Below are positions 22,639 to 33,198 of a DNA stretch of 64,000 bases, piece after piece (the stretch's first letter is position 1; the number at the start of each line of letters is the position of its first letter). This DNA is from Escherichia phage vB_EcoM_WFK. The notes under the pieces were generated by a model. That model was not told the origin of the DNA. It did not search any database and saw only the letters and a program-made list of their open reading frames with translations. The stretch lies in sequence record MK373775.1. One strand, given 5' to 3'. A program made the position numbers and the translations under genes.

Positions 22639-22668
22639 ATAGTATCACACATCCATGTGTTTGTAAAC
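22639..22668 (-). promoter_or_regulatory. T4-type early promoter
   Basis: GTTTAC, 17-nt spacer, ATACTAT; overlaps 3' end of alt. Confidence 0.5.
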
Positions 22669-24755
22669 TATCCTTGGACAAATTTAAACGGAACTGATTC
22701 TAAATCCATTAAAGATGCTAACAATTTCAAACCTTTAGGTGCACTAGTTTTTTCTACAAATGAAGAGAACGATACCGGCTCATCCGATTCGATTTCACCC
22801 GTCATAGCAACCACCTCGCCTGTTTCCATGAGAACATCACCATCGTAAATGACAGCTTCATCCAACTGGTCTGAGGACATGACTTCAGCTTGAATAAATT
22901 TAAGGTTAGATTCTAAACCTGCACCAGTGTCAGATGACGCATCTGTAATTTTATTTATCTGCAAGAGAATGCCTCTAGGCAAAATAATTTCTTGCTCATT
23001 AGGGTGATTACTCAACTGTCCTGGATAAATCACGTTAACTTTATGGGCGCCGTCAATAGCCCATCCAACGTTAACACGGATTTGTTCTGGCGCATGCATA
23101 GCGGTACGCACCAGACTAGGAGAAATAGTAACACCTTCATCATTATTGTCAATGTTAAGCTCTTTGCGAACTTCTTCAGGAGCAAGTCCAAGGGCAACGT
23201 TCTCTTTAAACCCACCGAAAATAATAGGAGCTAGTGAAGTGGAAACATAGTTTCTGAAGTAGAATACCTTATTTTTAACCATTGCTTCGTAAATAGGCAT
23301 TCTGATAGACTGAGCTCTATATAACGTTAGTCCTTCAGGTAAACGGTCTCCATTTAAAAACGCCGAATCAAGACCATCAATAGCGCGTTTAACTTCATCT
23401 TCATCTGCAACATCGTAAAAATCTGGTTTATAACGACCTAACAACATATTATTGATATCGGTATACGCAGAAGAGGCATATTCACGAATAGCTCGTTTTT
23501 CAGCAACAGAGTATTGTTTAGGGTCCCGATTCATTGTTATATTAAAGGTGCCTCTAGCCGATTCTCGTGCATAAGTATACATCACACTAGACAAGAACGC
23601 TGATTTACGTTGTTTCCAAGTTTTTTCAGATACTTCAGCTAAAACATCGTCGGCCAGTTGGAAATTATCACGTCTAAAATCTTCAAACCATTCGTCTTTA
23701 ATAGAGTCCGCAATTTCGTTTGCAGCTTCAACAAAAGCAGCTAATGCTTTAACAGATGTTGTTTTTTCAGTTTTAATTTTCTTAGCAAACTTTTCTAAAG
23801 TTGGCTTAATAACACTACCATAAGAAACTTCATCAGCAAATCTAAAGGATTCATCAATACGATTATAAATCTTATTTTCGATATCAGCAACTAAAGTGCC
23901 TTTTGCTGTGGATGATGCTTGGGCTAGTACGATTTCATATGCTTCAGGAAGTAATTCGGCTGTAGCCGGGCCACTAACTTCTTTAGCAGAATTTTCGTAT
24001 TTCTGGAATAACTCACCTTCTTGGCGGTCAGCTTCTAAAGATTGGCTTGCGGCAATAGCACGACGAGAAATTTTAGTACGAGCAATAACAGGCTTATCTT
24101 TACGTTTTTCTTCTACAGCAGCAATAGAACCGGCGATAGCCGTTTCTTTGGTGACCTTTTCGCCAGTCTTTTTACTCACATAAACTTCGCCAACATCAGA
24201 ATCTACTTTCGCGTACAACTCTGTGTTAATGTTAGGGATGCCTTTAATATCTTCAATGTTGGCATTTTTACGAACCATCATCACATAGGTGTGTTTACCT
24301 GTGAATTGATACATTGCCGACAATACTTTAAAACGACCACCGGTTTTAGTAGAAACTAAACGAGCAAGAAGAGTTTGAAGCTGCTGTCCACGTCCTTTCA
24401 ATTTCTTGGTAGGGAATCGGAATAGAACCGCATCCATACGAAGAGCTTTAACCTGTTCATATACTGTATTGAAAATGGTGTTGATTGCATCAATAGGAGC
24501 AGGACCAAGGCCATTTTTCAATTCAGCGAGATTACCCTTTTCAGACAGACTCATAATAACAACATGAGCGTATTTGTCGCCAAGTTTAACTTGTTTTACA
24601 GCGTCGCCTTCGGAAAGGTAAGAGAATAAACGAACTACGATGTTTGTATCAACATCACCAATTTTCCAGACTTGTGGAACTTTAGCTTTAGGGTTCAAAT
24701 TGACGACAGGAAGACTGCCTTCAGATTCAAACACTTCATTTAATTGTTCAGACAT
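22668..24755 (-). CDS. alt: Alt-like ADP-ribosyltransferase (injected internal protein)
   Basis: 695 aa; position between gene 54 and ligase as in T4. Confidence 0.75.
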   Translation of the reverse strand: MSEQLNEVFESEGSLPVVNLNPKAKVPQVWKIGDVDTNIVVRLFSYLSEGDAVKQVKLGDKYAHVVIMSLSEKGNLAELKNGLGPAPIDAINTIFNTVYEQVKALRMDAVLFRFPTKKLKGRGQQLQTLLARLVSTKTGGRFKVLSAMYQFTGKHTYVMMVRKNANIEDIKGIPNINTELYAKVDSDVGEVYVSKKTGEKVTKETAIAGSIAAVEEKRKDKPVIARTKISRRAIAASQSLEADRQEGELFQKYENSAKEVSGPATAELLPEAYEIVLAQASSTAKGTLVADIENKIYNRIDESFRFADEVSYGSVIKPTLEKFAKKIKTEKTTSVKALAAFVEAANEIADSIKDEWFEDFRRDNFQLADDVLAEVSEKTWKQRKSAFLSSVMYTYARESARGTFNITMNRDPKQYSVAEKRAIREYASSAYTDINNMLLGRYKPDFYDVADEDEVKRAIDGLDSAFLNGDRLPEGLTLYRAQSIRMPIYEAMVKNKVFYFRNYVSTSLAPIIFGGFKENVALGLAPEEVRKELNIDNNDEGVTISPSLVRTAMHAPEQIRVNVGWAIDGAHKVNVIYPGQLSNHPNEQEIILPRGILLQINKITDASSDTGAGLESNLKFIQAEVMSSDQLDEAVIYDGDVLMETGEVVAMTGEIESDEPVSFSSFVEKTSAPKGLKLLASLMDLESVPFKFVQG

Positions 24756-24811: not shown

Positions 24812-24999
24812 TAATCCACAATCGGAAGCAAAGTACGATAAACTTCAAAATTAGAGCCTTTTTCGTACTTATCGAAATTGTCCATAAAAATATGATAGGA
24901 ATCGTTATTAGGAAAATCTAATATAATCTGAGAGCAAGAGGTGGAAACATCTCCACCATCCTTCTTAGCTACAATAACTGTTTCTAAATAAGCTTTCAT
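24811..24999 (-). CDS. hypothetical small protein
   Basis: Start at ATG overlapping ligase stop; hairpin downstream. Confidence 0.4.
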   Translation of the reverse strand: MKAYLETVIVAKKDGGDVSTSCSQIILDFPNNDSYHIFMDNFDKYEKGSNFEVYRTLLPIVD

Positions 25000-26492
25000 T
25001 ATAAACCTGTCTGGGACCACGGTCCAAATACGTCTTCAAACGAATCCGCTTCTGTTTTATCAAAACGGAACCCTTTAATAATTGGGAGGAAAATACCTAC
25101 AGTGCCTTCACGTCCTTTAGAATGAACCCAACCATTGCATTCACAATCAGCAATACGTCCAATCAATTTACCTTCACGAGCTTCGGTCATTAATCGTTCA
25201 CGGTCCAAATCATGTCGCTCATCTAAAGGAATAAGAACCTTTACACCATCAACTGTTTTATGAGTTGTATCTTTAAACCCTGAACCACAATCGGTTGTAA
25301 TACGACGACAACGTGATACGAGTTCGACACCACCTAATTTGTTAGGGTCTTTAGAGTGTTCATAGTATCCTACAACTTCTAAAGCGATATCAATAACTTC
25401 TTTAAATTTAATTAGGTTCTTAGAACGTTTGTTTTCCCAATATGAATCACGGTTTTTAAGGATAATACCTTCAAGACCTTGGTCAACATATTTTTTATAA
25501 ACCACTTTAGCTTCGTCAAGATTACGAACTAACTGATTTTCAATTGGCTCAATTCGTTTAAAGCCTTCAGCCATATTTTCAAGAGCAGCAAAACGAACAT
25601 CGTATTTCTGACCTTTAATTTTGCCATCAGAATAGACTTCATCTAAAGGAACATAGTCCCAGGCTTGAAGAACCATACCTTCAGCTTCTTTAGGAGAAAT
25701 AGTCCCTTGAAGAGATTTATTTGCTAAACCGTTTGAAGTGCTACGGTCCGCAACTTGTACTTCTTCGGATTCTTCATTATCACCAAATAAGAACGACAGG
25801 TCATTTCCTGAGCTCACAGCCTTTTTAATATCAAATGAATGGTAAACTAATTCACCGTCGATTAAAACCCCATTAGGGTGTCTTTCACGAGCTTCTTTAG
25901 TCATTTCCATTAGTTCATCCGCTAATAGAGTAAGACCATGATATTCGTTGCCGGCACGAGAAAAGAATTGAACACCATCATCGCGAACTTCAGCGAAACA
26001 ACGAGCACCATCTGCTTTTAATTGGGCAAATGCGGGCCATTTAATATTTTTAGTAATCAATTTCTCGTCATATGCAGATGCTAACATCTGTGGTTGCAAT
26101 TGAATAAGTCCAGGCCACACCTTATTCGCGATAGACACTGAAGCACCTACTTCAAGATCGCGCATCATTACACGACGAAGGACTTCTACATCATCAGGTT
26201 TACCATCAGCGATATAACCCATGAGCTCTTTAATTGCAGCATTACCAGTGAGTTTACGAGTGGCTAATGTGAACTCAATAAAATCCAACATGTCATCTAA
26301 TTCAAGAAGACCATACGCTTGAGACCTTTCACCTGGTCCTGGCCATTTCTTAATATAATACTGGATACCACGTGCATATGTTAAACGATACACACGTTCA
26401 AGTAATTTGTTGTCCTTATTTTTCTTAAGGATTTCCTGTTTTGTTTTAGTAGAACCAATCGCAGCTATTTGGTTTAAAATATCTAAAATCAT
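24999..26492 (-). CDS. 30: ATP-dependent DNA ligase gp30
   Basis: 497 aa; adenylation motif KADGAR; N-terminus matches T4 ligase. Confidence 0.95.
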   Translation of the reverse strand: MILDILNQIAAIGSTKTKQEILKKNKDNKLLERVYRLTYARGIQYYIKKWPGPGERSQAYGLLELDDMLDFIEFTLATRKLTGNAAIKELMGYIADGKPDDVEVLRRVMMRDLEVGASVSIANKVWPGLIQLQPQMLASAYDEKLITKNIKWPAFAQLKADGARCFAEVRDDGVQFFSRAGNEYHGLTLLADELMEMTKEARERHPNGVLIDGELVYHSFDIKKAVSSGNDLSFLFGDNEESEEVQVADRSTSNGLANKSLQGTISPKEAEGMVLQAWDYVPLDEVYSDGKIKGQKYDVRFAALENMAEGFKRIEPIENQLVRNLDEAKVVYKKYVDQGLEGIILKNRDSYWENKRSKNLIKFKEVIDIALEVVGYYEHSKDPNKLGGVELVSRCRRITTDCGSGFKDTTHKTVDGVKVLIPLDERHDLDRERLMTEAREGKLIGRIADCECNGWVHSKGREGTVGIFLPIIKGFRFDKTEADSFEDVFGPWSQTGL

Positions 26493-26758
26493 TTGATGTC
26501 CTCGATTTTGGTTACGGTTCTATTATAAGCCACTTCATCTAGAAGCGATTTCAGCGTTTTCTGATAAGTTGTAATCCATTTACCGAGTCCTTCAACATAG
26601 TATTCTGAAATGTAGATGAACCCTTGTTCAACACACTCTTTAAATATTTCTGCGTCTTTTACTGAACGAAACAATGGCCAGTCTCGAAAGAACATGTTAA
26701 CGTGACCGTAGTCACGTGTGGTATTTTTGCCATCTGTAATATCATGAACTACAAACAT
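26489..26758 (-). CDS. hypothetical protein (30.1 position)
   Basis: 89-aa ORF, 4-nt overlap with ligase start. Confidence 0.5.
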   Translation of the reverse strand: MFVVHDITDGKNTTRDYGHVNMFFRDWPLFRSVKDAEIFKECVEQGFIYISEYYVEGLGKWITTYQKTLKSLLDEVAYNRTVTKIEDIK

Positions 26759-26767
26759 AATTAACCC

Positions 26768-27592
26768 TTAACAATTTATAGACCAAGTCCATTTAGACGA
26801 ATCTAAAGGAAAGTTTTGAATCGTCCACCACGGCTGCATATCAGTTGGTCCTGGGGTTCGCCAGGTATATGGAGTACGTGTTGTCGAGGGGCCACCAATT
26901 TGATTAGGCCATGCACCTGGACTTGTTGCACCAGATTCTTTAAGCAAATCCGCCAATCGTTTTAAAAGGTCTTCACGATCTGAATCTGAATTATTCTTAG
27001 GCAGAACCAAACGAGATTCAATATCATCCCACGTGTGTACACGTTGTGCAGTACGAGGAATGGCATCACGTTCACCACGAGCCAACCAATAAATCGGTAC
27101 ATTAAGAATTTCTGCCGCATGGTCACAATGATGAGCTAAATCGTCAACGTAACAAATTACGTTATATTTTGTTTTAGCTAGTTCGAATAATTGTTCCTTT
27201 GAAGAATCATGACCACACATCATTACTTCAGAGAAAGCGCCTGGGAACAAAGCATTCAAATTAAATTGTCTATTCAATCGAGCATCAATTGAATCACCTA
27301 GCGCCGTCACGGCTACAAAATTATAGTCTTCTTTTAGTTTATTGATAACTCGAAGAGCATCAGAATAAGGCGCTAAGTAACGAATAAAATCAGAGCTATT
27401 ATATTTTTCTATTAATTGTTTACCAAGGTTATCGTCGGTGTTGAACAGTTTACCAGGAGAAATAAATTTTTCGTCCTGAATCATTTTTAAAATATGTTCT
27501 AATGGAAGGTTATATTTTTGGGCAAAATAAGGAAGTCCAGATTGCCAGCTTAAACATACACCATCAATATCAGTCAAAATAGTAGGCTTCAT
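26768..27592 (-). CDS. HAD-superfamily-like hydrolase (30.2 position)
   Basis: N-terminal DxDGV motif (LTDIDGV) typical of HAD phosphatases. Confidence 0.5.
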   Translation of the reverse strand: MKPTILTDIDGVCLSWQSGLPYFAQKYNLPLEHILKMIQDEKFISPGKLFNTDDNLGKQLIEKYNSSDFIRYLAPYSDALRVINKLKEDYNFVAVTALGDSIDARLNRQFNLNALFPGAFSEVMMCGHDSSKEQLFELAKTKYNVICYVDDLAHHCDHAAEILNVPIYWLARGERDAIPRTAQRVHTWDDIESRLVLPKNNSDSDREDLLKRLADLLKESGATSPGAWPNQIGGPSTTRTPYTWRTPGPTDMQPWWTIQNFPLDSSKWTWSINC

Positions 27593-28056
27593 AAAGAGTC
27601 TCTTAATAGGTTTAACACGTCAATAAATTCATCTTCAGTTAGTATTGTATCATCTTTTGTTAGGTGGCTGGCCATGCTGTGCTTCAAAATTTTTCCTTTA
27701 GAGGCTTGTAAGGCATCACGAAACCCCTTGTTTTGGATCGCGGCTTCAAAATATGCATTTGTGTATAATTCTTTCCATGCTTCGGAGTATCTTGAAAATG
27801 GAACTCCTAACCAGAAGAGAGTCCCACGGTCCTGAGCTCTTGCGTAAGACCTTCCAGCTTGCTGTGCAGCCAATCCAGACAACCAAAATATACGTCTTTG
27901 TTGTTCAACATTTTTCACCTTACATCCTTGGAGAAATCCTTCAAGACCTCCGAATTGAATACCATCCATAACAAAAGGCCATTGAGCAAAGTTACTTAAT
28001 GCACATGACGGCCATTTGAAATTACTTCTTATTTCTAATTCAGACATCTTTAACAC
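27589..28056 (-). CDS. NADAR (YbiA/DUF1768)-like protein (30.3 position)
   Basis: LSNFAQWP..DG..F motif resembling NADAR family; recognised by eye only. Confidence 0.45.
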   Translation of the reverse strand: MLKMSELEIRSNFKWPSCALSNFAQWPFVMDGIQFGGLEGFLQGCKVKNVEQQRRIFWLSGLAAQQAGRSYARAQDRGTLFWLGVPFSRYSEAWKELYTNAYFEAAIQNKGFRDALQASKGKILKHSMASHLTKDDTILTEDEFIDVLNLLRDSL

Positions 28057-28258
28057 TTATAATTTCAACATCAGCCCAATGTCCGTATCCAGGTATACGG
28101 TCTTCGATAGATAAATTTCTGTCATTTTTAGGCATTTTAATTGACGTAACGTATGGTTCTAAACGGTTTTCCGCGTAATATGGAAAAACGTCGGTTACAC
28201 GATAAGTAACTTCAATCATTTCCGTACCAAACAATTTCTGGATTAATTTATTCAACAT
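28040..28258 (-). CDS. hypothetical protein
   Basis: 72-aa ORF in operon context. Confidence 0.45.
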   Translation of the reverse strand: MLNKLIQKLFGTEMIEVTYRVTDVFPYYAENRLEPYVTSIKMPKNDRNLSIEDRIPGYGHWADVEIISVKDV

Positions 28259-28445: not shown

Positions 28446-28499
28446 ATTTTTCCACTTACTAAAGAAATCATTATACTCTAATCCGTCCTTGGATGTACA

Positions 28500-29114
28500 C
28501 TACTTAATGAAATTAATTTCTACCGGATGAACAACAGGTTGAGCAGTGATATATTGAGTAATTGCTTTCATGACTAGAGCTTCAGAACCAGGATTTTTCT
28601 CAACGAATTCACGTGCTAGGTTATGAGCTTCGAGTTCACTCAATAAACCGGAACGCTGGCATCCACGGTCTTGAGTACCCTGTTCAGATAAAAGGACTAC
28701 TACATATTTTTCATCGTCGTAGGGCTTAGCCAGTTGAGCAAATGTTCCTTTACTTCCAAAAGGAGAGTTATGTCGCCACATCACGCCGTGAGGAGTTTCA
28801 ACCTTCGTATATTCGTGCGGTCCATTTTTCTTAGTTTCTTGATGTGGAACTTCATAGACTTTAGGGTTAGGACATTCAATAAAATGCTCATCTAAATCGG
28901 TCGAGAATATTAAAGTAAAACAATTACTGAATTTACCAACACCGGCCTGATAAATTTTACCTTCAGAAGTTCTAATTTCACAAACTGAGCCGGCATCAGT
29001 AACTTCTAAAACTTCAAAAGGCTCAATAAGGTCATATGAGAACATGTTTTTAAGGCGTGGAGTAATATCCCCATTTTTAAAATTCATTTTATAAAAAGTA
29101 TTAACTTTAAACAT
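28500..29114 (-). CDS. hypothetical protein (204 aa)
   Basis: Start at internal ATG with GAGGA RBS; ORF-track TTG start lies inside an intergenic hairpin. Confidence 0.5.
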   Translation of the reverse strand: MFKVNTFYKMNFKNGDITPRLKNMFSYDLIEPFEVLEVTDAGSVCEIRTSEGKIYQAGVGKFSNCFTLIFSTDLDEHFIECPNPKVYEVPHQETKKNGPHEYTKVETPHGVMWRHNSPFGSKGTFAQLAKPYDDEKYVVVLLSEQGTQDRGCQRSGLLSELEAHNLAREFVEKNPGSEALVMKAITQYITAQPVVHPVEINFIK

Positions 29115-29126
29115 AATTTCCTCAGT

Positions 29127-29142
29127 GGGAGCCGAAGCTCCC
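29127..29142 (-). terminator. intergenic stem-loop
   Basis: GGGAGC-cgaa-GCTCCC. Confidence 0.5.
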
Positions 29143-29149
29143 AATTAAT

Positions 29150-29515
29150 TTAGATATCAAATTCGTTAAGAACTACATCAAAGATTGCTTCGAGATGTTC
29201 AGGTTTAGCTCGGTTACTCAGGATATGACGAATCCAAGTTTTAACCAGAAGTTTACGATTAACACCATTCCAGCAAGGATGAGTACCTAAATCACGCTGA
29301 CGGAAATCATCATCTAATGCAATTTTAAAATTTGAACCTTCCATCGTGATTGAAACCGTGATACCATTTTCAAATCGCATATAAACGTAATTAGGAGTCA
29401 TGCACTGTTCGATTTCACAAACTGTACCGTTTTCGTGTTTCCATAAGCAAATAACTTCAGAAGAACCAGCAATACCGTTAGAAACATATTTACGTTCGAA
29501 GTTGGTGTAGTTCAT
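29150..29515 (-). CDS. hypothetical protein (121 aa, CMTP motif)
   Basis: Own early promoter; shares CMTP motif with next gene. Confidence 0.5.
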   Translation of the reverse strand: MNYTNFERKYVSNGIAGSSEVICLWKHENGTVCEIEQCMTPNYVYMRFENGITVSITMEGSNFKIALDDDFRQRDLGTHPCWNGVNRKLLVKTWIRHILSNRAKPEHLEAIFDVVLNEFDI

Positions 29516-30088: not shown

Positions 30089-30268
30089 TTATGCAACAAC
30101 CTTTCCAAAACGAGAAGCATCATCTCGAAGAACTGCACGTGCTCTGCGCATGATCTTCTCAACTGTTTGATTAATACGAGAGTTCGACCCACGCTTGTAT
30201 CCAGCGCGTTTAGAGGTACCATCAACTTTCTTTTCAACTGCTTTCTTTGCTTTAGCTTGTTTTGCCAT
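30089..30268 (-). CDS. small basic protein (59 aa), not in ORF track
   Basis: ATG start; K/R-rich; stop followed by stem-loop terminator. Confidence 0.35.
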   Translation of the reverse strand: MAKQAKAKKAVEKKVDGTSKRAGYKRGSNSRINQTVEKIMRRARAVLRDDASRFGKVVA

Positions 30269-30563
30269 TATAAATTCTCTTTAAATGAAAATGCAGGACT
30301 TATTGACATTGCCTGCGCAAGCCCTCAAGGGGAACATAGGTTTTGGATATTTAACGACAGGATAACCATAAACCCGTCATCATACCAACCACGACTTAGA
30401 CAGATAACCTTTTTCTGACGCGTGATAGTACAAAATACATTCAAGAGGTACACCGTAAAACTGCCGGGGCCTTAAAACTATAATGATTCGCAAATCATTA
30501 ATCAGACAGTTCGACGGCTCCTCGATTTTCTAGCCGCACTTAAGGTAGCGAATCACCTAAAAC

Positions 30564-31635: not shown

Positions 31636-32206
31636 AAAAGTTTCGGATTTGTTCCCAATTCAGAGAACGAAGATTATTACGAGAGTACTGAATTACTTCA
31701 ATACCGGCTTGTTTTAGAATGTCTGCCCAATTTTCAGGAGATCGGTCGTATAATTCTGCATATACAACCTTTTTAATACCTGACTGTGTAATAGCTTTAG
31801 TGCAATCAGGACACGGAGAAAGCGTCGTATATAACGTAGCACCTTCAATAGAATTACCTTTACGAGCTGCAAATAAAATTGCATTCAGTTCAGCATGGAT
31901 TTCATTATTAGCAGACCATGCACTATGAGCGGCCCGATGTTCTTTAGCCAAAACAAAATTATCCACCCGTCCAAATGCTGTAGTGCCTTCTTTATGCCCA
32001 GCAACGATGACCGGGCTTGGTTTATTCTTCAACCAACCGTTTTCGGATGCATGTTCGCAACAGTTTGTACCACCTGAAGGAGAGCCATTATAACCTGTAG
32101 AAATAATGCGTCCATCTTTTTCAATGACGGCGCCAACTTTCCATGAACAACATTTTGATTCTTGAGAAATCAGATATGCAATCTGAAGGTATGTGCTAGC
32201 TTTCAT
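31625..32206 (-). CDS. cd: dCMP deaminase
   Basis: 193 aa; zinc motifs HAE and PCPDC. Confidence 0.9.
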   Translation of the reverse strand: MKASTYLQIAYLISQESKCCSWKVGAVIEKDGRIISTGYNGSPSGGTNCCEHASENGWLKNKPSPVIVAGHKEGTTAFGRVDNFVLAKEHRAAHSAWSANNEIHAELNAILFAARKGNSIEGATLYTTLSPCPDCTKAITQSGIKKVVYAELYDRSPENWADILKQAGIEVIQYSRNNLRSLNWEQIRNFCGE

Positions 32207-33198
32207 TATTGAACCTTATTAATATAAGTTAACAGCTCTTTAGTTTGTTCCCAACTGATGCACGCATCGGTAACGGAAACGCCATAGGACATATTATCAG
32301 AAATTTTTTGATTTCCTTCATGTAGGAACGATTCTATCATAATTCCTTTGACCAAATCATTAGCTGCTAAATTTTTACCAATACCAATTTGATTGCTATA
32401 ATGCCCATCAGCGTTTGCATGGCTACAGTCAACCATTACATAATGATTCAGACCTACTGCCCTTGCTTTGTTAGAAGCTTCTTGAATATCAGAAGAATGA
32501 TAGTTCGGGCCGTTGGTCCCGCCACGCAATACGATATGCGTATTCTGATTACCTTCAGCTTCAACAATGCCTACAGTACCATCGACGTCCATACCCATAT
32601 ACCGATGAGGCCAGGCGGCACTATACATCGCGTCTATAGCTACTTTAATAGAACCATTGGTTGCGTTCTTGAAGCCTACGCACATCGGTAGACCTGAAGC
32701 AATTTCACGATGTGTCTGACTTTCAGTCGTACGGGCGCCAATAGCAACCCATGAGAAAATACCAGAAAGATACTTAATCGTGAATGGGTCTAATACTTCA
32801 GTTGCTAATGGAAGTCCCATACGTAGAAGTTTACGACACAATGTTCGTGCAACTATAAGACCGTGGTTCATATCAAAACTTCCGTCAAGATATGGATCAT
32901 TTACAAGACCTTTCCAACCTACGGTAGTTCGAGGCTTTTCAAAATAAACGCGCATCACTAACAGAACATTAGGAAGACGAGTTTGAAGTTCAGCCAGACG
33001 TTTGCCGTATTCAACAGCAGCAATAGGGTCATGAATTGAACAAGGACCTACAACGATAAGTTTGCGTGGGTCTTCACCATTCATAATCGAATTAACTTGT
33101 TCGCGATGAGAAGCCACTTGTGATGCGTAAGCTTCCGACAAAGGAATAATCTCAGCCAGTTCTTTTGGAGAAATAAGTTTTCCGACGACAGGTAACAT
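32206..33198 (-). CDS. 3-deoxy-D-arabino-heptulosonate-7-phosphate (DAHP) synthase, AroG/AroF/AroH class
   Basis: 330 aa; motifs GPCSIHD, KPRTTVGWKGL, GARTTESQ, DCSHAN, ESFLHEGNQ, TDACISWE align with E. coli AroG; AAGGA RBS. Confidence 0.9.
   Translation of the reverse strand: MLPVVGKLISPKELAEIIPLSEAYASQVASHREQVNSIMNGEDPRKLIVVGPCSIHDPIAAVEYGKRLAELQTRLPNVLLVMRVYFEKPRTTVGWKGLVNDPYLDGSFDMNHGLIVARTLCRKLLRMGLPLATEVLDPFTIKYLSGIFSWVAIGARTTESQTHREIASGLPMCVGFKNATNGSIKVAIDAMYSAAWPHRYMGMDVDGTVGIVEAEGNQNTHIVLRGGTNGPNYHSSDIQEASNKARAVGLNHYVMVDCSHANADGHYSNQIGIGKNLAANDLVKGIMIESFLHEGNQKISDNMSYGVSVTDACISWEQTKELLTYINKVQ

What the first reader, a model, noticed from the sequence alone, without database searches (positions are those of the whole stretch)
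26768..28056. HAD-like hydrolase and NADAR-like protein next to the Alt ADP-ribosyltransferase and DNA ligase
ORF 26768-27592 starts with an LTDIDGV motif (HAD-superfamily nucleophile motif). ORF 27589-28056 has an LSNFAQWP...DG motif that resembles the NADAR (YbiA/DUF1768) family, whose members act on NAD/ADP-ribose-derived substrates. The pair is co-transcribed downstream of DNA ligase and lies within 4 kb of alt. This suggests a module for NAD or ADP-ribose metabolism, or for reversing ADP-ribosylation, possibly as anti-defence. The NADAR call is by eye and is uncertain.
Basis: inference. Interest (0 to 1): 0.45.

Follow-up and report, generated by a model that had tools for sequence, protein, structure and literature searches.

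The report
Known phage anti-DarT enzyme plus phosphatase
These are two well-conserved early genes of an RB69-like T-even phage: one is an intact copy of adfN (T4 gene 30.3), a published enzyme that strips toxic ADP-ribose off phage DNA, and the other is a still-uncharacterised HAD phosphatase (T4 gene 30.2) that published knock-out data show is not needed for that job.

Summary
The window is a Mosigvirus (an RB69-like T-even coliphage).

- **ORF 27589-28047(-)** is the orthologue of T4 gp30.3, also called AdfN. It is 95% identical to the T4 protein and hits Pfam Phage_30_3 at E 5e-69. The predicted fold matches only the solved NADAR structures. The catalytic residues E36, K43 and H123 are invariant. 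It lacks the RB69 frameshift, so it is a full-length allele.
- **T4 AdfN is already characterised.** It is a published ADP-ribosyl-guanine DNA glycohydrolase that defeats the DarTG1 defence system (Toxins 2024; Nat Commun 2025; HIDEN-SEQ 2025).
- **ORF 26768-27592(-)** is gp30.2, a C1-capped HAD phosphatase with all four catalytic motifs. It is nearest to the 5'(3')-deoxyribonucleotidase (NT5C) family. I found no published function for it.

- The genes lie upstream of the ligase gene, not downstream.
- The "module" idea is not supported. In T4 transposon data, 30.3 insertions are lost on DarTG1 (log2FC -7.25) while 30.2 insertions are neutral (-0.12), and so are alt insertions. The two genes are also separated in several T4-like lineages.

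Verdict: the finding is already known and of low interest. The only open item is the substrate of gp30.2.

The parts
27589..28047 (-). adfN, the orthologue of T4 gene 30.3: a phage-clade NADAR ADP-ribosylglycohydrolase of 152 aa. Catalytic codons are E36 at 27942-27940, K43 at 27921-27919 and H123 at 27681-27679. The C-terminal helix (residues 138-151) is intact.
   Evidence: Pfam PF08010 hit at E 5.4e-69, 230.8 bits against a cutoff of 36. 95% identity to T4 gp30.3 over the full length. The RB69 T-insertion is absent. E36, K43 and H123 are invariant in 47 homologues. AF2 pLDDT 93.9. Foldseek top three hits are YbiA 2b3w, PnNADAR 8bau and GlNADAR 8bat. The family profile hits YbiA at E 0.0034.
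26993..27592 (-). gp30.2 catalytic core (residues 1-200): a C1-capped HAD phosphatase. Motif I is D8-x-D10-G-V (27571-27563), motif II is T96, motif III is K132 and motif IV is D150-D151. The cap is formed by helices between about residues 16 and 86.
26768..26992 (-). gp30.2 C-terminal extension (residues 201-274): one helix (203-221) followed by a disordered tail rich in Pro, Trp and Thr. It is variable or absent in many homologues.
   Evidence: pLDDT 41-54 from residue 221 onward; runs below 50 at 231-254, 260-262 and 267-274. Many homologues are only 195-220 aa long, and the tail aligns poorly even with T4.
27589..27592 (-). ATGA overlap: the adfN stop codon TGA overlaps the gp30.2 start codon ATG, a tightly packed junction that would allow translational coupling.
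   Evidence: Sequence read directly. The same arrangement occurs in T4.
28040..28258 (-). gp30.4 homologue (72 aa). Its 3' end overlaps the adfN ATG by 8 nt. This is context, not part of the enzyme pair.
   Evidence: phrog_2042 hit at E 2.4e-35. Annotated as the 30.4 product in phage mogra. T4 30.4 insertions are mildly depleted on DarTG1 (log2FC -1.79), probably through polarity on adfN.
26489..26758 (-). gp30.1 homologue (DUF3045), downstream neighbour of gp30.2. Context only.
   Evidence: Pfam PF11243 hit at E 1.4e-26.
24999..26492 (-). gp30, the ATP-dependent DNA ligase. It lies downstream of the pair in the direction of transcription. Context only.
   Evidence: Pfam DNA_ligase_A_M hit at E 1.9e-26. 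64% identity to T4 gp30.
22668..24755 (-). alt, the Alt ADP-ribosyltransferase. Context only; no functional link to the pair was found.
   Evidence: Pfam ADPrib_exo_Tox hit at E 2.9e-28. T4 alt insertions are neutral on DarTG1.

Best explanation
These are two neighbouring but functionally independent early genes of a Mosigvirus T-even phage.

**1. The 152-aa protein from 27589-28047(-) is an intact AdfN (gp30.3).** It is a minimal NADAR-fold N-glycosidase.
- During infection the host DarT1 toxin ADP-ribosylates guanine in phage DNA and blocks replication.
- AdfN hydrolyses the guanine-ADP-ribose bond, releasing ADP-ribose and restoring the DNA. It uses E36, K43 and the phage-clade histidine H123.
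- This activity is shown experimentally for the 95%-identical T4 protein and is inferred here by orthology.
- Unlike RB69, this phage has the full C-terminal helix, so it should resist DarTG1.

**2. The 274-aa protein from 26768-27592(-) is gp30.2, a Mg2+-dependent HAD phosphomonoesterase.**
- It has an Asp nucleophile (D8), a general acid/base (D10) and a helical C1 cap. A C1 cap implies a small-molecule substrate.
- Its nearest characterised relatives are the 5'(3')-deoxyribonucleotidases (NT5C). The most likely reaction is therefore dephosphorylation of a nucleoside or deoxynucleoside monophosphate in the infected cell's nucleotide pool. This step is inferred.
- It is dispensable for growth and for AdfN's anti-DarTG1 function in T4.

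The adjacency of the two genes, and their closeness to alt and ligase, reflects conserved T-even gene order rather than a pathway.
For: **AdfN identity and integrity.**
- Pfam Phage_30_3 hit and 95% identity to T4 gp30.3.
- No RB69 frameshift.
- E36, K43 and H123 are invariant.
- NADAR fold and a family-profile link to YbiA.

**AdfN mechanism and role, from papers.**
- T4 gp30.3 removes G-ADPr from DNA in vitro (PMC11125620; PMC12945103).
- It is necessary and sufficient for DarTG1 resistance. E36A and K43A mutants and the C-terminal truncation all impair it. RB69 is sensitive because of its truncation (PMC11825919).
- T4 30.3 insertions are lost on DarTG1 with log2FC -7.25.

**gp30.2.**
- Motifs and HAD fold.
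- NT5C is the only specific Pfam family hit by more than two of the 103 relatives, at 38 of 103.
- Best PDB sequence hit is the putative 5'(3')-deoxyribonucleotidase 3bwv at E 1.7e-6. Nucleotide phosphatases SSM1/SDT1, XMP phosphatase, mdN and cdN follow.
- W16 aligns with the Phe of DGVLADF in cdN.

**Independence of the two genes.**
- T4 30.2 insertions are neutral on DarTG1 (-0.12), on DarTG2 (0.00) and in LB versus M9 (-0.10). All 72 of 72 TA sites were hit.
- The genes are unlinked in several lineages.
Against: - No assay was done on this phage's own proteins. AdfN function rests on orthology, with 7 substitutions relative to T4, none at catalytic positions.
- gp30.2 itself does not reach the Pfam gathering score for any HAD model (16 bits against 23.8). 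It gives no NT5C hit on its own.
- Fold searches rank dehalogenase- and phosphoglycolate-type HADs as high as the nucleotidases. The substrate class is therefore only a best guess.
- The 4-nt overlap with adfN, the co-occurrence of both genes in about 1,450-1,500 phage records with near-identical host-genus counts, and the NADAR-NT5C adjacency in KVP40-like phages leave some room for a conditional functional link.
- AdfN is fully active only in T-even infections, for unknown reasons.
Confidence: 0.8

Rival explanations
1. The pair is a true two-enzyme module. On this reading gp30.2 is the unidentified T-even-specific helper that AdfN needs for full activity in vivo. It might clear a phosphorylated by-product or ADP-ribosylated guanine mononucleotides, or it might dock AdfN at replicating DNA.
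For: - The genes overlap by ATGA and co-occur across Straboviridae.
- AdfN^T4 rescues RB69, which has an intact 30.2, but not T5, Bas25 or uninfected cells. The authors suggest an additional T-even protein may be needed.
- A different, bona fide NT5C gene sits directly after the NADAR gene in Vibrio phage ValKK3.
- Guanine mononucleotides are known targets of some G-specific ARTs.
Against: - T4 transposon insertions at 71 TA sites in 30.2 are neutral on DarTG1 (log2FC -0.12, p 0.61), while 30.3 insertions are lost.
- The genes are separated in Aeromonas phage 65, JD18 and KVP40-like phages.
- NADARs in other phages have no such neighbour.
- ADP-ribose has no phosphomonoester for a HAD enzyme to remove.
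Confidence: 0.06
2. gp30.2 is a counter-defence nucleotidase in its own right. It would deplete a nucleotide precursor or signal used by an immune system that has not yet been tested against it. The model is T5 Dmp, which dephosphorylates dAMP to block dITP signalling in the Kongming system.
For: - The family is NT5C-like.
- The gene sits in an early-gene block rich in anti-defence functions, namely adfN and alt.
- It is non-essential in the laboratory, as accessory anti-defence genes usually are.
- There is precedent for a phage HAD-type dNMP phosphatase acting as an anti-defence factor (bioRxiv 10.1101/2024.12.20.629578).
Against: - There is no detectable homology to T5 Dmp beyond the DxDG motif (hhalign probability 1%).
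- No phenotype appeared with DarTG1, DarTG2 or LB versus M9 in the sheets read.
- The substrate is unknown.
- A housekeeping role in pool balancing explains the data equally well.
Confidence: 0.12
3. The NADAR protein serves NAD/ADP-ribose metabolism linked to Alt. It would either reverse Alt-type protein ADP-ribosylation or degrade soluble ADPr-derived signals, rather than repair DNA.
For: - It lies near alt.
- The comparative-genomics literature noted that T4-like NADARs are expressed early alongside ARTs, and it favoured soluble ADPr derivatives as substrates (PMC9503650).
Against: - Direct biochemistry and genetics show that T4 gp30.3 removes guanine-ADPr from DNA and is the DarTG1 counter-defence.
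- It does not act on T-ADPr or C-ADPr.
- alt insertions are neutral on DarTG1.
- alt and 30.3 are only 41% and 95% conserved with T4 respectively, so they are not co-evolving.
Confidence: 0.03
4. gp30.2 is a DNA-end 3'-phosphatase that prepares nicks for the adjacent DNA ligase, like the HAD phosphatase domain of T4 Pnkp.
For: - gp30.2 stays next to ligase even where adfN is absent from the locus, as in Aeromonas phage 65 and RB43.
Against: - The Pnkp match covers only the core, at 125-129 residues.
- gp30.2 has a large helical C1 cap. In HAD enzymes this encloses small substrates, whereas enzymes acting on macromolecules are capless. This point rests on established knowledge of the HAD superfamily.
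- The phage already encodes Pnkp.
Confidence: 0.03

Closest known systems
AdfN (T4 gp30.3), anti-DarT factor NADAR; Pfam PF08010 Phage_30_3, the phage clade of the NADAR superfamily
   Same: - 95% amino-acid identity over all 152 residues.
- Same position in the 30.4-30.3-30.2-30.1-30 gene string.
- Same catalytic residues E36 and K43, the same phage-clade His (H123) and the same C-terminal helix.
- Same predicted YbiA/NADAR fold.
   Different: - Seven substitutions relative to T4, none at positions invariant in the family.
- Unlike its closest named relative RB69, it lacks the frameshifting T insertion and is full length.
- No activity data exist for this allele.
DarG1 and other solved NADARs (E. 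coli YbiA 2b3w, Phytophthora NADAR 8bau, Geobacter/Trichlorobacter lovleyi NADAR 8bat)
   Same: - Same fold: TM 0.57-0.66, and these are the only meaningful PDB matches.
- Same N-terminal LSNF...DG...E..Q..K catalytic motif.
- Same reaction, removal of guanine-ADPr.
   Different: - It is a minimal core only, without the extra N-terminal elements of DarG1.
- His replaces the Asp (DarG1) or Glu (YbiA) in the last strand.
- It is not paired with a DarT toxin, so it is an orphan antitoxin.
- It gives no hit to Pfam NADAR PF08719 itself.
NT5C family: 5'(3')-deoxyribonucleotidases (cdN, mdN; S. epidermidis 3bwv), Pfam PF06941
   Same: - C1-capped HAD fold.
- DxDGV(L/C)xx(F/W) motif I, and colinear motifs II-IV.
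- Family-profile hit to 3bwv at E 1.7e-6 over the full length.
- 38 of 103 distant relatives of gp30.2 hit PF06941.
   Different: - gp30.2 itself does not hit PF06941.
- Identity to the solved enzymes is about 15-19%.
- It has its own invariant residues (S18, Y64, N65, R108, N111, R172).
- In Tevenvirinae it carries a 75-residue, largely disordered C-terminal tail.
- Substrate and activity are untested.
T5 Dmp (deoxynucleoside-5'-monophosphatase, anti-Kongming factor)
   Same: It is also a phage early-gene phosphatase with a DxDG nucleophile motif. It offers a possible functional analogy: nucleotide pool manipulation used as counter-defence.
   Different: There is no detectable homology beyond the motif (hhalign probability 1%). 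This is an analogy only.

Membership tests
Phage NADAR / AdfN (gp30.3) family | Sequence match to Pfam PF08010 Phage_30_3 above the gathering score | tested here: met
   230.8 bits against a cutoff of 36, E 5.4e-69, covering profile positions 1-138 of 138.
Phage NADAR / AdfN (gp30.3) family | YbiA/NADAR fold: a helical core flanked by small beta-sheets | tested here: met
   AF2 model with pLDDT 93.9 and pTM 0.89. The top three Foldseek PDB hits are 2b3w (E 8e-5, TM 0.66), 8bau and 8bat. The next hits have E>3.
Phage NADAR / AdfN (gp30.3) family | Catalytic Glu and Lys (E36 and K43 in T4 AdfN), plus His in the last strand as the phage-clade signature | tested here: met
   E36, K43 and H123 are invariant in 47 homologues. 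H123 directly follows the last strand, E120-122. The roles of these residues are taken from PMC11825919 and PMC11125620.
Phage NADAR / AdfN (gp30.3) family | Intact C-terminal helix, which is required for full activity and is lost in RB69 | tested here: met
   The protein is full length at 152 aa. The T inserted in RB69 is absent. The helix at residues 138-151 is modelled.
Phage NADAR / AdfN (gp30.3) family | Hydrolysis of guanine-N2-ADP-ribose on DNA and protection from DarTG1 | not testable with these tools
   Shown only for the T4, T2 and other phage proteins in the literature.
NADAR superfamily (Pfam PF08719 model) | Direct hit to PF08719 | tested here: not met
   No hit at E<=1 for the window protein. 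The ValKK3 homologue reaches only E 0.0031, below the cutoff. One homologue, P0161, carries both Pfam labels. The link to the superfamily therefore comes through the fold and through the family-profile hit to YbiA.
HAD superfamily | Four catalytic motifs: I DxD, II S/T, III K/R, IV DD or similar | tested here: met
   D8, D10 and K132 are invariant. T96, D150 and D151 are conserved in >=90% of 42 homologues. D8, D10, K132 and D151 are retained across 103 distant relatives.
HAD superfamily | Rossmannoid HAD core fold with a cap inserted after motif I (C1 type) | tested here: met
HAD superfamily | Pfam HAD model above the gathering score | tested here: not met
   HAD_2 scores 16 bits against a cutoff of 23.8 (E 0.014). 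NCBIfam gives only TIGR01428 at E 0.094. At the sequence level the family is too divergent for the curated models.
NT5C 5'(3')-deoxyribonucleotidase family (PF06941) | Sequence membership in PF06941 | tested here: inconclusive
   The window protein gives no hit. Of 103 relatives found with the gp30.2 profile, 38 hit PF06941 (best E 4e-10), and no other substrate-specific Pfam family recurs among them. The family profile hits 3bwv at E 1.7e-6.
NT5C 5'(3')-deoxyribonucleotidase family (PF06941) | dNMP phosphatase activity | not testable with these tools
   Published T4 HIDEN-SEQ resampling of control versus DarTG1 gives 30.3 -7.25 (padj 0), 30.2 -0.12 (p 0.61) and alt -0.01.
   The genes are adjacent or nearly adjacent in T4, RB69, mogra, RB43 and Acj61. 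They are separated in Aeromonas phage 65, JD18 and V09/ValKK3. No gp30.2-like gene lies near the NADAR gene in five non-Straboviridae contexts.

The most novel reading that the evidence does not exclude
gp30.2 may be an NT5C-like nucleotide phosphatase with a conditional anti-defence role that existing screens did not probe. Two versions are possible. It could deplete a (deoxy)nucleotide precursor or signal of a nucleotide-based immune system, analogous to T5 Dmp against Kongming. Or it could clear ADP-ribosylated guanine mononucleotides alongside AdfN. Either would explain why it is translationally coupled to adfN, and why an unrelated NT5C gene sits directly after the NADAR gene in KVP40-like phages.
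Probability: 0.12. Interest if true: 0.55.

Novelty: already known. Interest (0 to 1): 0.15.

Why it matters
**What follows in practice.** This phage carries an intact adfN. Unlike its relative RB69, it should therefore plate on hosts armed with DarTG1. That is useful for host-range prediction and for annotating the many records where this gene is still called "hypothetical protein".

**What does not follow.** There is no new biology in the NADAR call, because the mechanism and role were published in 2024-2025.

**What remains open.** gp30.2 is present in about 1,440 phage records and belongs to a family of more than 1,000 sequence clusters, yet it has no known substrate or phenotype. Assigning it to the NT5C-like nucleotidase branch narrows the experiments needed.

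Tried and rejected
1. **Direct Pfam NADAR, PADLOC and NCBIfam hits for either protein.** None were found. The NADAR link had to come from Phage_30_3, the fold and a profile hit to YbiA.
2. **Single-sequence PDB searches.** These were uninformative.
3. **gp30.2 as a homologue of T5 Dmp.** Rejected; hhalign probability is 1%.
4. **ValKK3 NT5C as the orthologue of gp30.2.** Rejected. BLASTP matches only the motif I region and the family profile gives E 5.5e-4. A separate gp30.2-like gene lies elsewhere in KVP40-like genomes.
5. **gp30.2 as the missing T-even cofactor of AdfN.** I considered this seriously because. I then set it aside on the T4 transposon data.
6. **Promoter and terminator scan.** The counts do not exceed the shuffled expectation (23 against 18.6; 4 against 4.0). 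I therefore make no claim about the transcription unit beyond gene packing.
7. **Fusion proteins among distant gp30.2 relatives (P0183, P0238, P0280, P0227).** No informative extra Pfam domains were found.
9. **Literature on gp30.2.** Nothing was found.
10. **Frameshift check on the gp30.2 tail.** The GIEYL..QPT motif seen in other homologues is not encoded in another frame of the window.
Full report
**What the window is.** The 1.9 kb around the finding is 100% identical to Escherichia phage vB_EcoM_WFL6982. It is 99% or more identical to 17 further coliphage records. One of these, phage mogra, is classified as Straboviridae; Tevenvirinae; Mosigvirus, the RB69 group. The gene order on the minus strand, read in the direction of transcription from high to low coordinates, is: 30.5-like, 30.4, 30.3, 30.2, 30.1, 30 (ligase), alt.1, alt. 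This is the same order as in T4 and RB69.

**ORF 27589-28047(-), the "NADAR-like" protein.**
- It matches Pfam PF08010 (Phage_30_3) end to end at E 5.4e-69 and phrog_652.
- Counted from the ATG at 28047, which is the start used in T4 and in annotated relatives, it is 152 aa long. It is 95% identical to T4 gp30.3.
- RB69's copy is truncated after residue 137. The DNA alignment shows the window lacks the single extra T that causes this frameshift.
- In an alignment of 47 homologues down to 35% identity, E36, K43 and H123 are invariant.
- An AlphaFold2 model is confident, with pLDDT 93.9. Its only meaningful PDB matches are the three solved NADARs: E. coli YbiA (E 8e-5, TM 0.66), Phytophthora NADAR bound to ADP-ribose, and Geobacter lovleyi NADAR.
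- The Pfam NADAR model itself (PF08719) is not hit. Membership in the superfamily therefore rests on the fold, the motifs and the sister Pfam family.

**What is already published about it.**
- gp30.3 proteins are described as the phage clade of NADARs, with His in place of the catalytic Glu or Asp of the last strand. Purified T4 gp30.3 removes ADP-ribose from guanine in DNA but not from thymine (PMC11125620). It also does not act on cytosine (PMC12945103).
- The gene was renamed adfN. It is necessary and sufficient for T-even resistance to the DarTG1 toxin-antitoxin defence. E36A, K43A and the RB69-type truncation all impair it. RB69 is DarTG1-sensitive precisely because of its frameshift (PMC11825919).
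- A T4 transposon screen independently found 30.3 insertions eliminated on DarTG1 (bioRxiv 10.1101/2025.11.20.689424).
- What can be added for this window is that the allele is the intact, presumably active form.

**ORF 26768-27592(-), the "HAD-like" protein.**
- This is the orthologue of T4 gp30.2. It matches phrog_420 at E 1e-77. It is 69% identical to T4 gp30.2 by tblastn (73% in the MAFFT alignment) and 96-97% identical to RB69 gp30.2.
- Curated HAD models are only weakly matched: HAD_2 at E 0.014, below the cutoff.
- The four HAD motifs are nevertheless conserved across 42 homologues: D8xD10, T96, K132 and D150-D151.
- The AF2 model is very confident for residues 1-190.
- The second Asp of motif I and the helical cap between motifs I and II indicate a phosphatase acting on a small molecule. 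This inference rests on established HAD knowledge.

**Placing gp30.2 more precisely.**
- I searched 1.84 billion cluster representatives with the family profile and found 1,134 relatives at E<=1e-3.
- Of 103 distant relatives scanned, 38 hit Pfam NT5C. The only other models hit by more than two members were the generic HAD models Hydrolase and HAD_2.
- A profile built from these relatives hits the putative 5'(3')-deoxyribonucleotidase 3bwv over its full length at E 1.7e-6. Other nucleotide phosphatases follow.
- The best-supported reading is thus a divergent NT5C-like nucleotide monophosphatase. The window protein does not itself reach any curated threshold, and the substrate is untested.
- Residues 201-274 form one helix plus a disordered tail rich in Pro, Trp and Thr. 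This tail is variable or absent in other lineages.
- I found no paper on gp30.2. A few GenBank records already label it "HAD-like hydrolase", "5' nucleotidase" or "putative phosphatase".

**Is it a module?**

Arguments for:
- The adfN stop codon and the 30.2 start codon overlap as ATGA.
- The two genes occur in about 1,440 and 1,510 phage records, with almost identical host-genus counts.
- In Vibrio phage ValKK3 the NADAR gene is followed directly by a different, bona fide NT5C gene.
- AdfN is fully active only in T-even infections, and the authors suspect an additional T-even protein is needed.

Arguments against:
- In the T4 screen, 30.2 insertions at 71 TA sites are neutral on DarTG1 (log2FC -0.12, p 0.61). 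By contrast, 30.3 gives -7.25, and 30.4 upstream gives -1.79, plausibly through polarity. alt is also neutral at -0.01.
- 30.2 is neutral on DarTG2 and in LB versus M9, and it is fully dispensable.
- In Aeromonas phage 65, 30.2 sits by ligase without adfN. In JD18, adfN has no 30.2 within 3 kb. KVP40-like phages keep their 30.2-like gene elsewhere.
- NADARs of Rhizobium, Ralstonia and two metagenomic phages have no gp30.2-like neighbour.

I conclude that the adjacency is inherited gene order. The two enzymes work independently, at least against DarTG1. Proximity to alt has no demonstrated meaning.

**Comparison with T4 at the DNA level.**
- Identity between the window and T4 is 74-94% per 100-column bin across 27126-28025, and 86-94% across adfN itself from 27526. 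This stretch covers adfN plus the 5' part of 30.2.
- It is 38-77% per bin across alt and ligase, mostly 45-75%.
- The matching protein identities are 95% for AdfN, against 64% for ligase and 41% for Alt.
- The patch could reflect strong constraint or recent exchange between T-even genera. The published RB69 x T2/T4 crosses recombined exactly here.

**Verdict.** The anti-defence role of the NADAR gene is already published, and the joint-module interpretation is not supported. Novelty: already known. The residual open question is the substrate and role of gp30.2.

Noticed in passing
window 32206-33198 (-): A 330-aa DAHP synthase (phospho-2-dehydro-3-deoxyheptonate aldolase, AroG-like) sits between dCMP deaminase (cd) and cd.2. 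T4 and RB69 have no such gene at this position. It looks like an auxiliary aromatic-amino-acid or shikimate-pathway gene carried by this Mosigvirus subgroup.
   Followed up: partly
window 28500-29144 (-): A 214-aa ORF (phrog_17531, E 3e-146, function unknown) occupies the slot where T4 and RB69 carry 30.6. The DNA here does not align with T4, at 8-43% identity per bin with many gaps. This is a lineage-specific replacement inside the early-gene block.
   Followed up: partly
window 27126-28025, 29119-29514, 30090-30288: These are mosaic patches of 74-94% nucleotide identity to T4, covering adfN plus the 5' part of 30.2, then 30.7, then the 30.9 region. They are embedded in sequence that is mostly 30-75% identical. 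AdfN is 95% identical to T4 at the protein level, while ligase is 64% and Alt is 41%. This suggests gene exchange between T-even genera or unusually strong constraint.
   Followed up: partly
database homologues of window 27589-28047 (P0103-P0117, P0121, P0146, P0178): Many close gp30.3 relatives in public data are truncated (83-126 aa) or fused to parts of neighbouring early genes, carrying Pfam labels PF11097, PF06919 and PF06019. Loss or rearrangement of adfN, as in RB69, therefore seems to recur in nature.
   Followed up: no
L006 (Vibrio phage ValKK3) 3007-3471 and 3449-3961: In KVP40-like phages the gp30.3-type NADAR gene is overlapped at its 3' end by a bona fide NT5C 5'(3')-deoxyribonucleotidase gene (PF06941, E 1.5e-12). 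That gene is not the orthologue of gp30.2, and the pair lies next to the gp46/47 nuclease genes rather than next to ligase. This is a second, independent NADAR-nucleotidase adjacency.
   Followed up: partly
window 28040-28258 (-) (gp30.4 homologue): In the published T4 transposon data, 30.4 insertions are significantly depleted on DarTG1 (log2FC -1.79, padj 0.014). The gene overlaps the adfN start by 8 nt. Polarity on adfN is the simplest reading, but a role of its own is not excluded.
   Followed up: no
window 26768-26992 (-) (gp30.2 residues 201-274): The C-terminal extension of gp30.2 is disordered, rich in Trp, Pro and Thr, and diverges sharply even between T4 and this phage. Only a TWRTPG motif is shared between them. 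Other lineages instead carry a G(I/V)GTGIEYL..QPT motif, or have no tail at all. Its purpose is unknown.
   Followed up: partly
window 28470-28499 (-): A sigma-70-like promoter match (TGTACA, 18-nt spacer, TATAAT) lies in the 54-bp gap upstream of the 30.5-like gene. It could be the early promoter driving the 30.5-30.4-adfN-30.2-30.1-30 string. However, the scan as a whole did not exceed the shuffled expectation.
   Followed up: no
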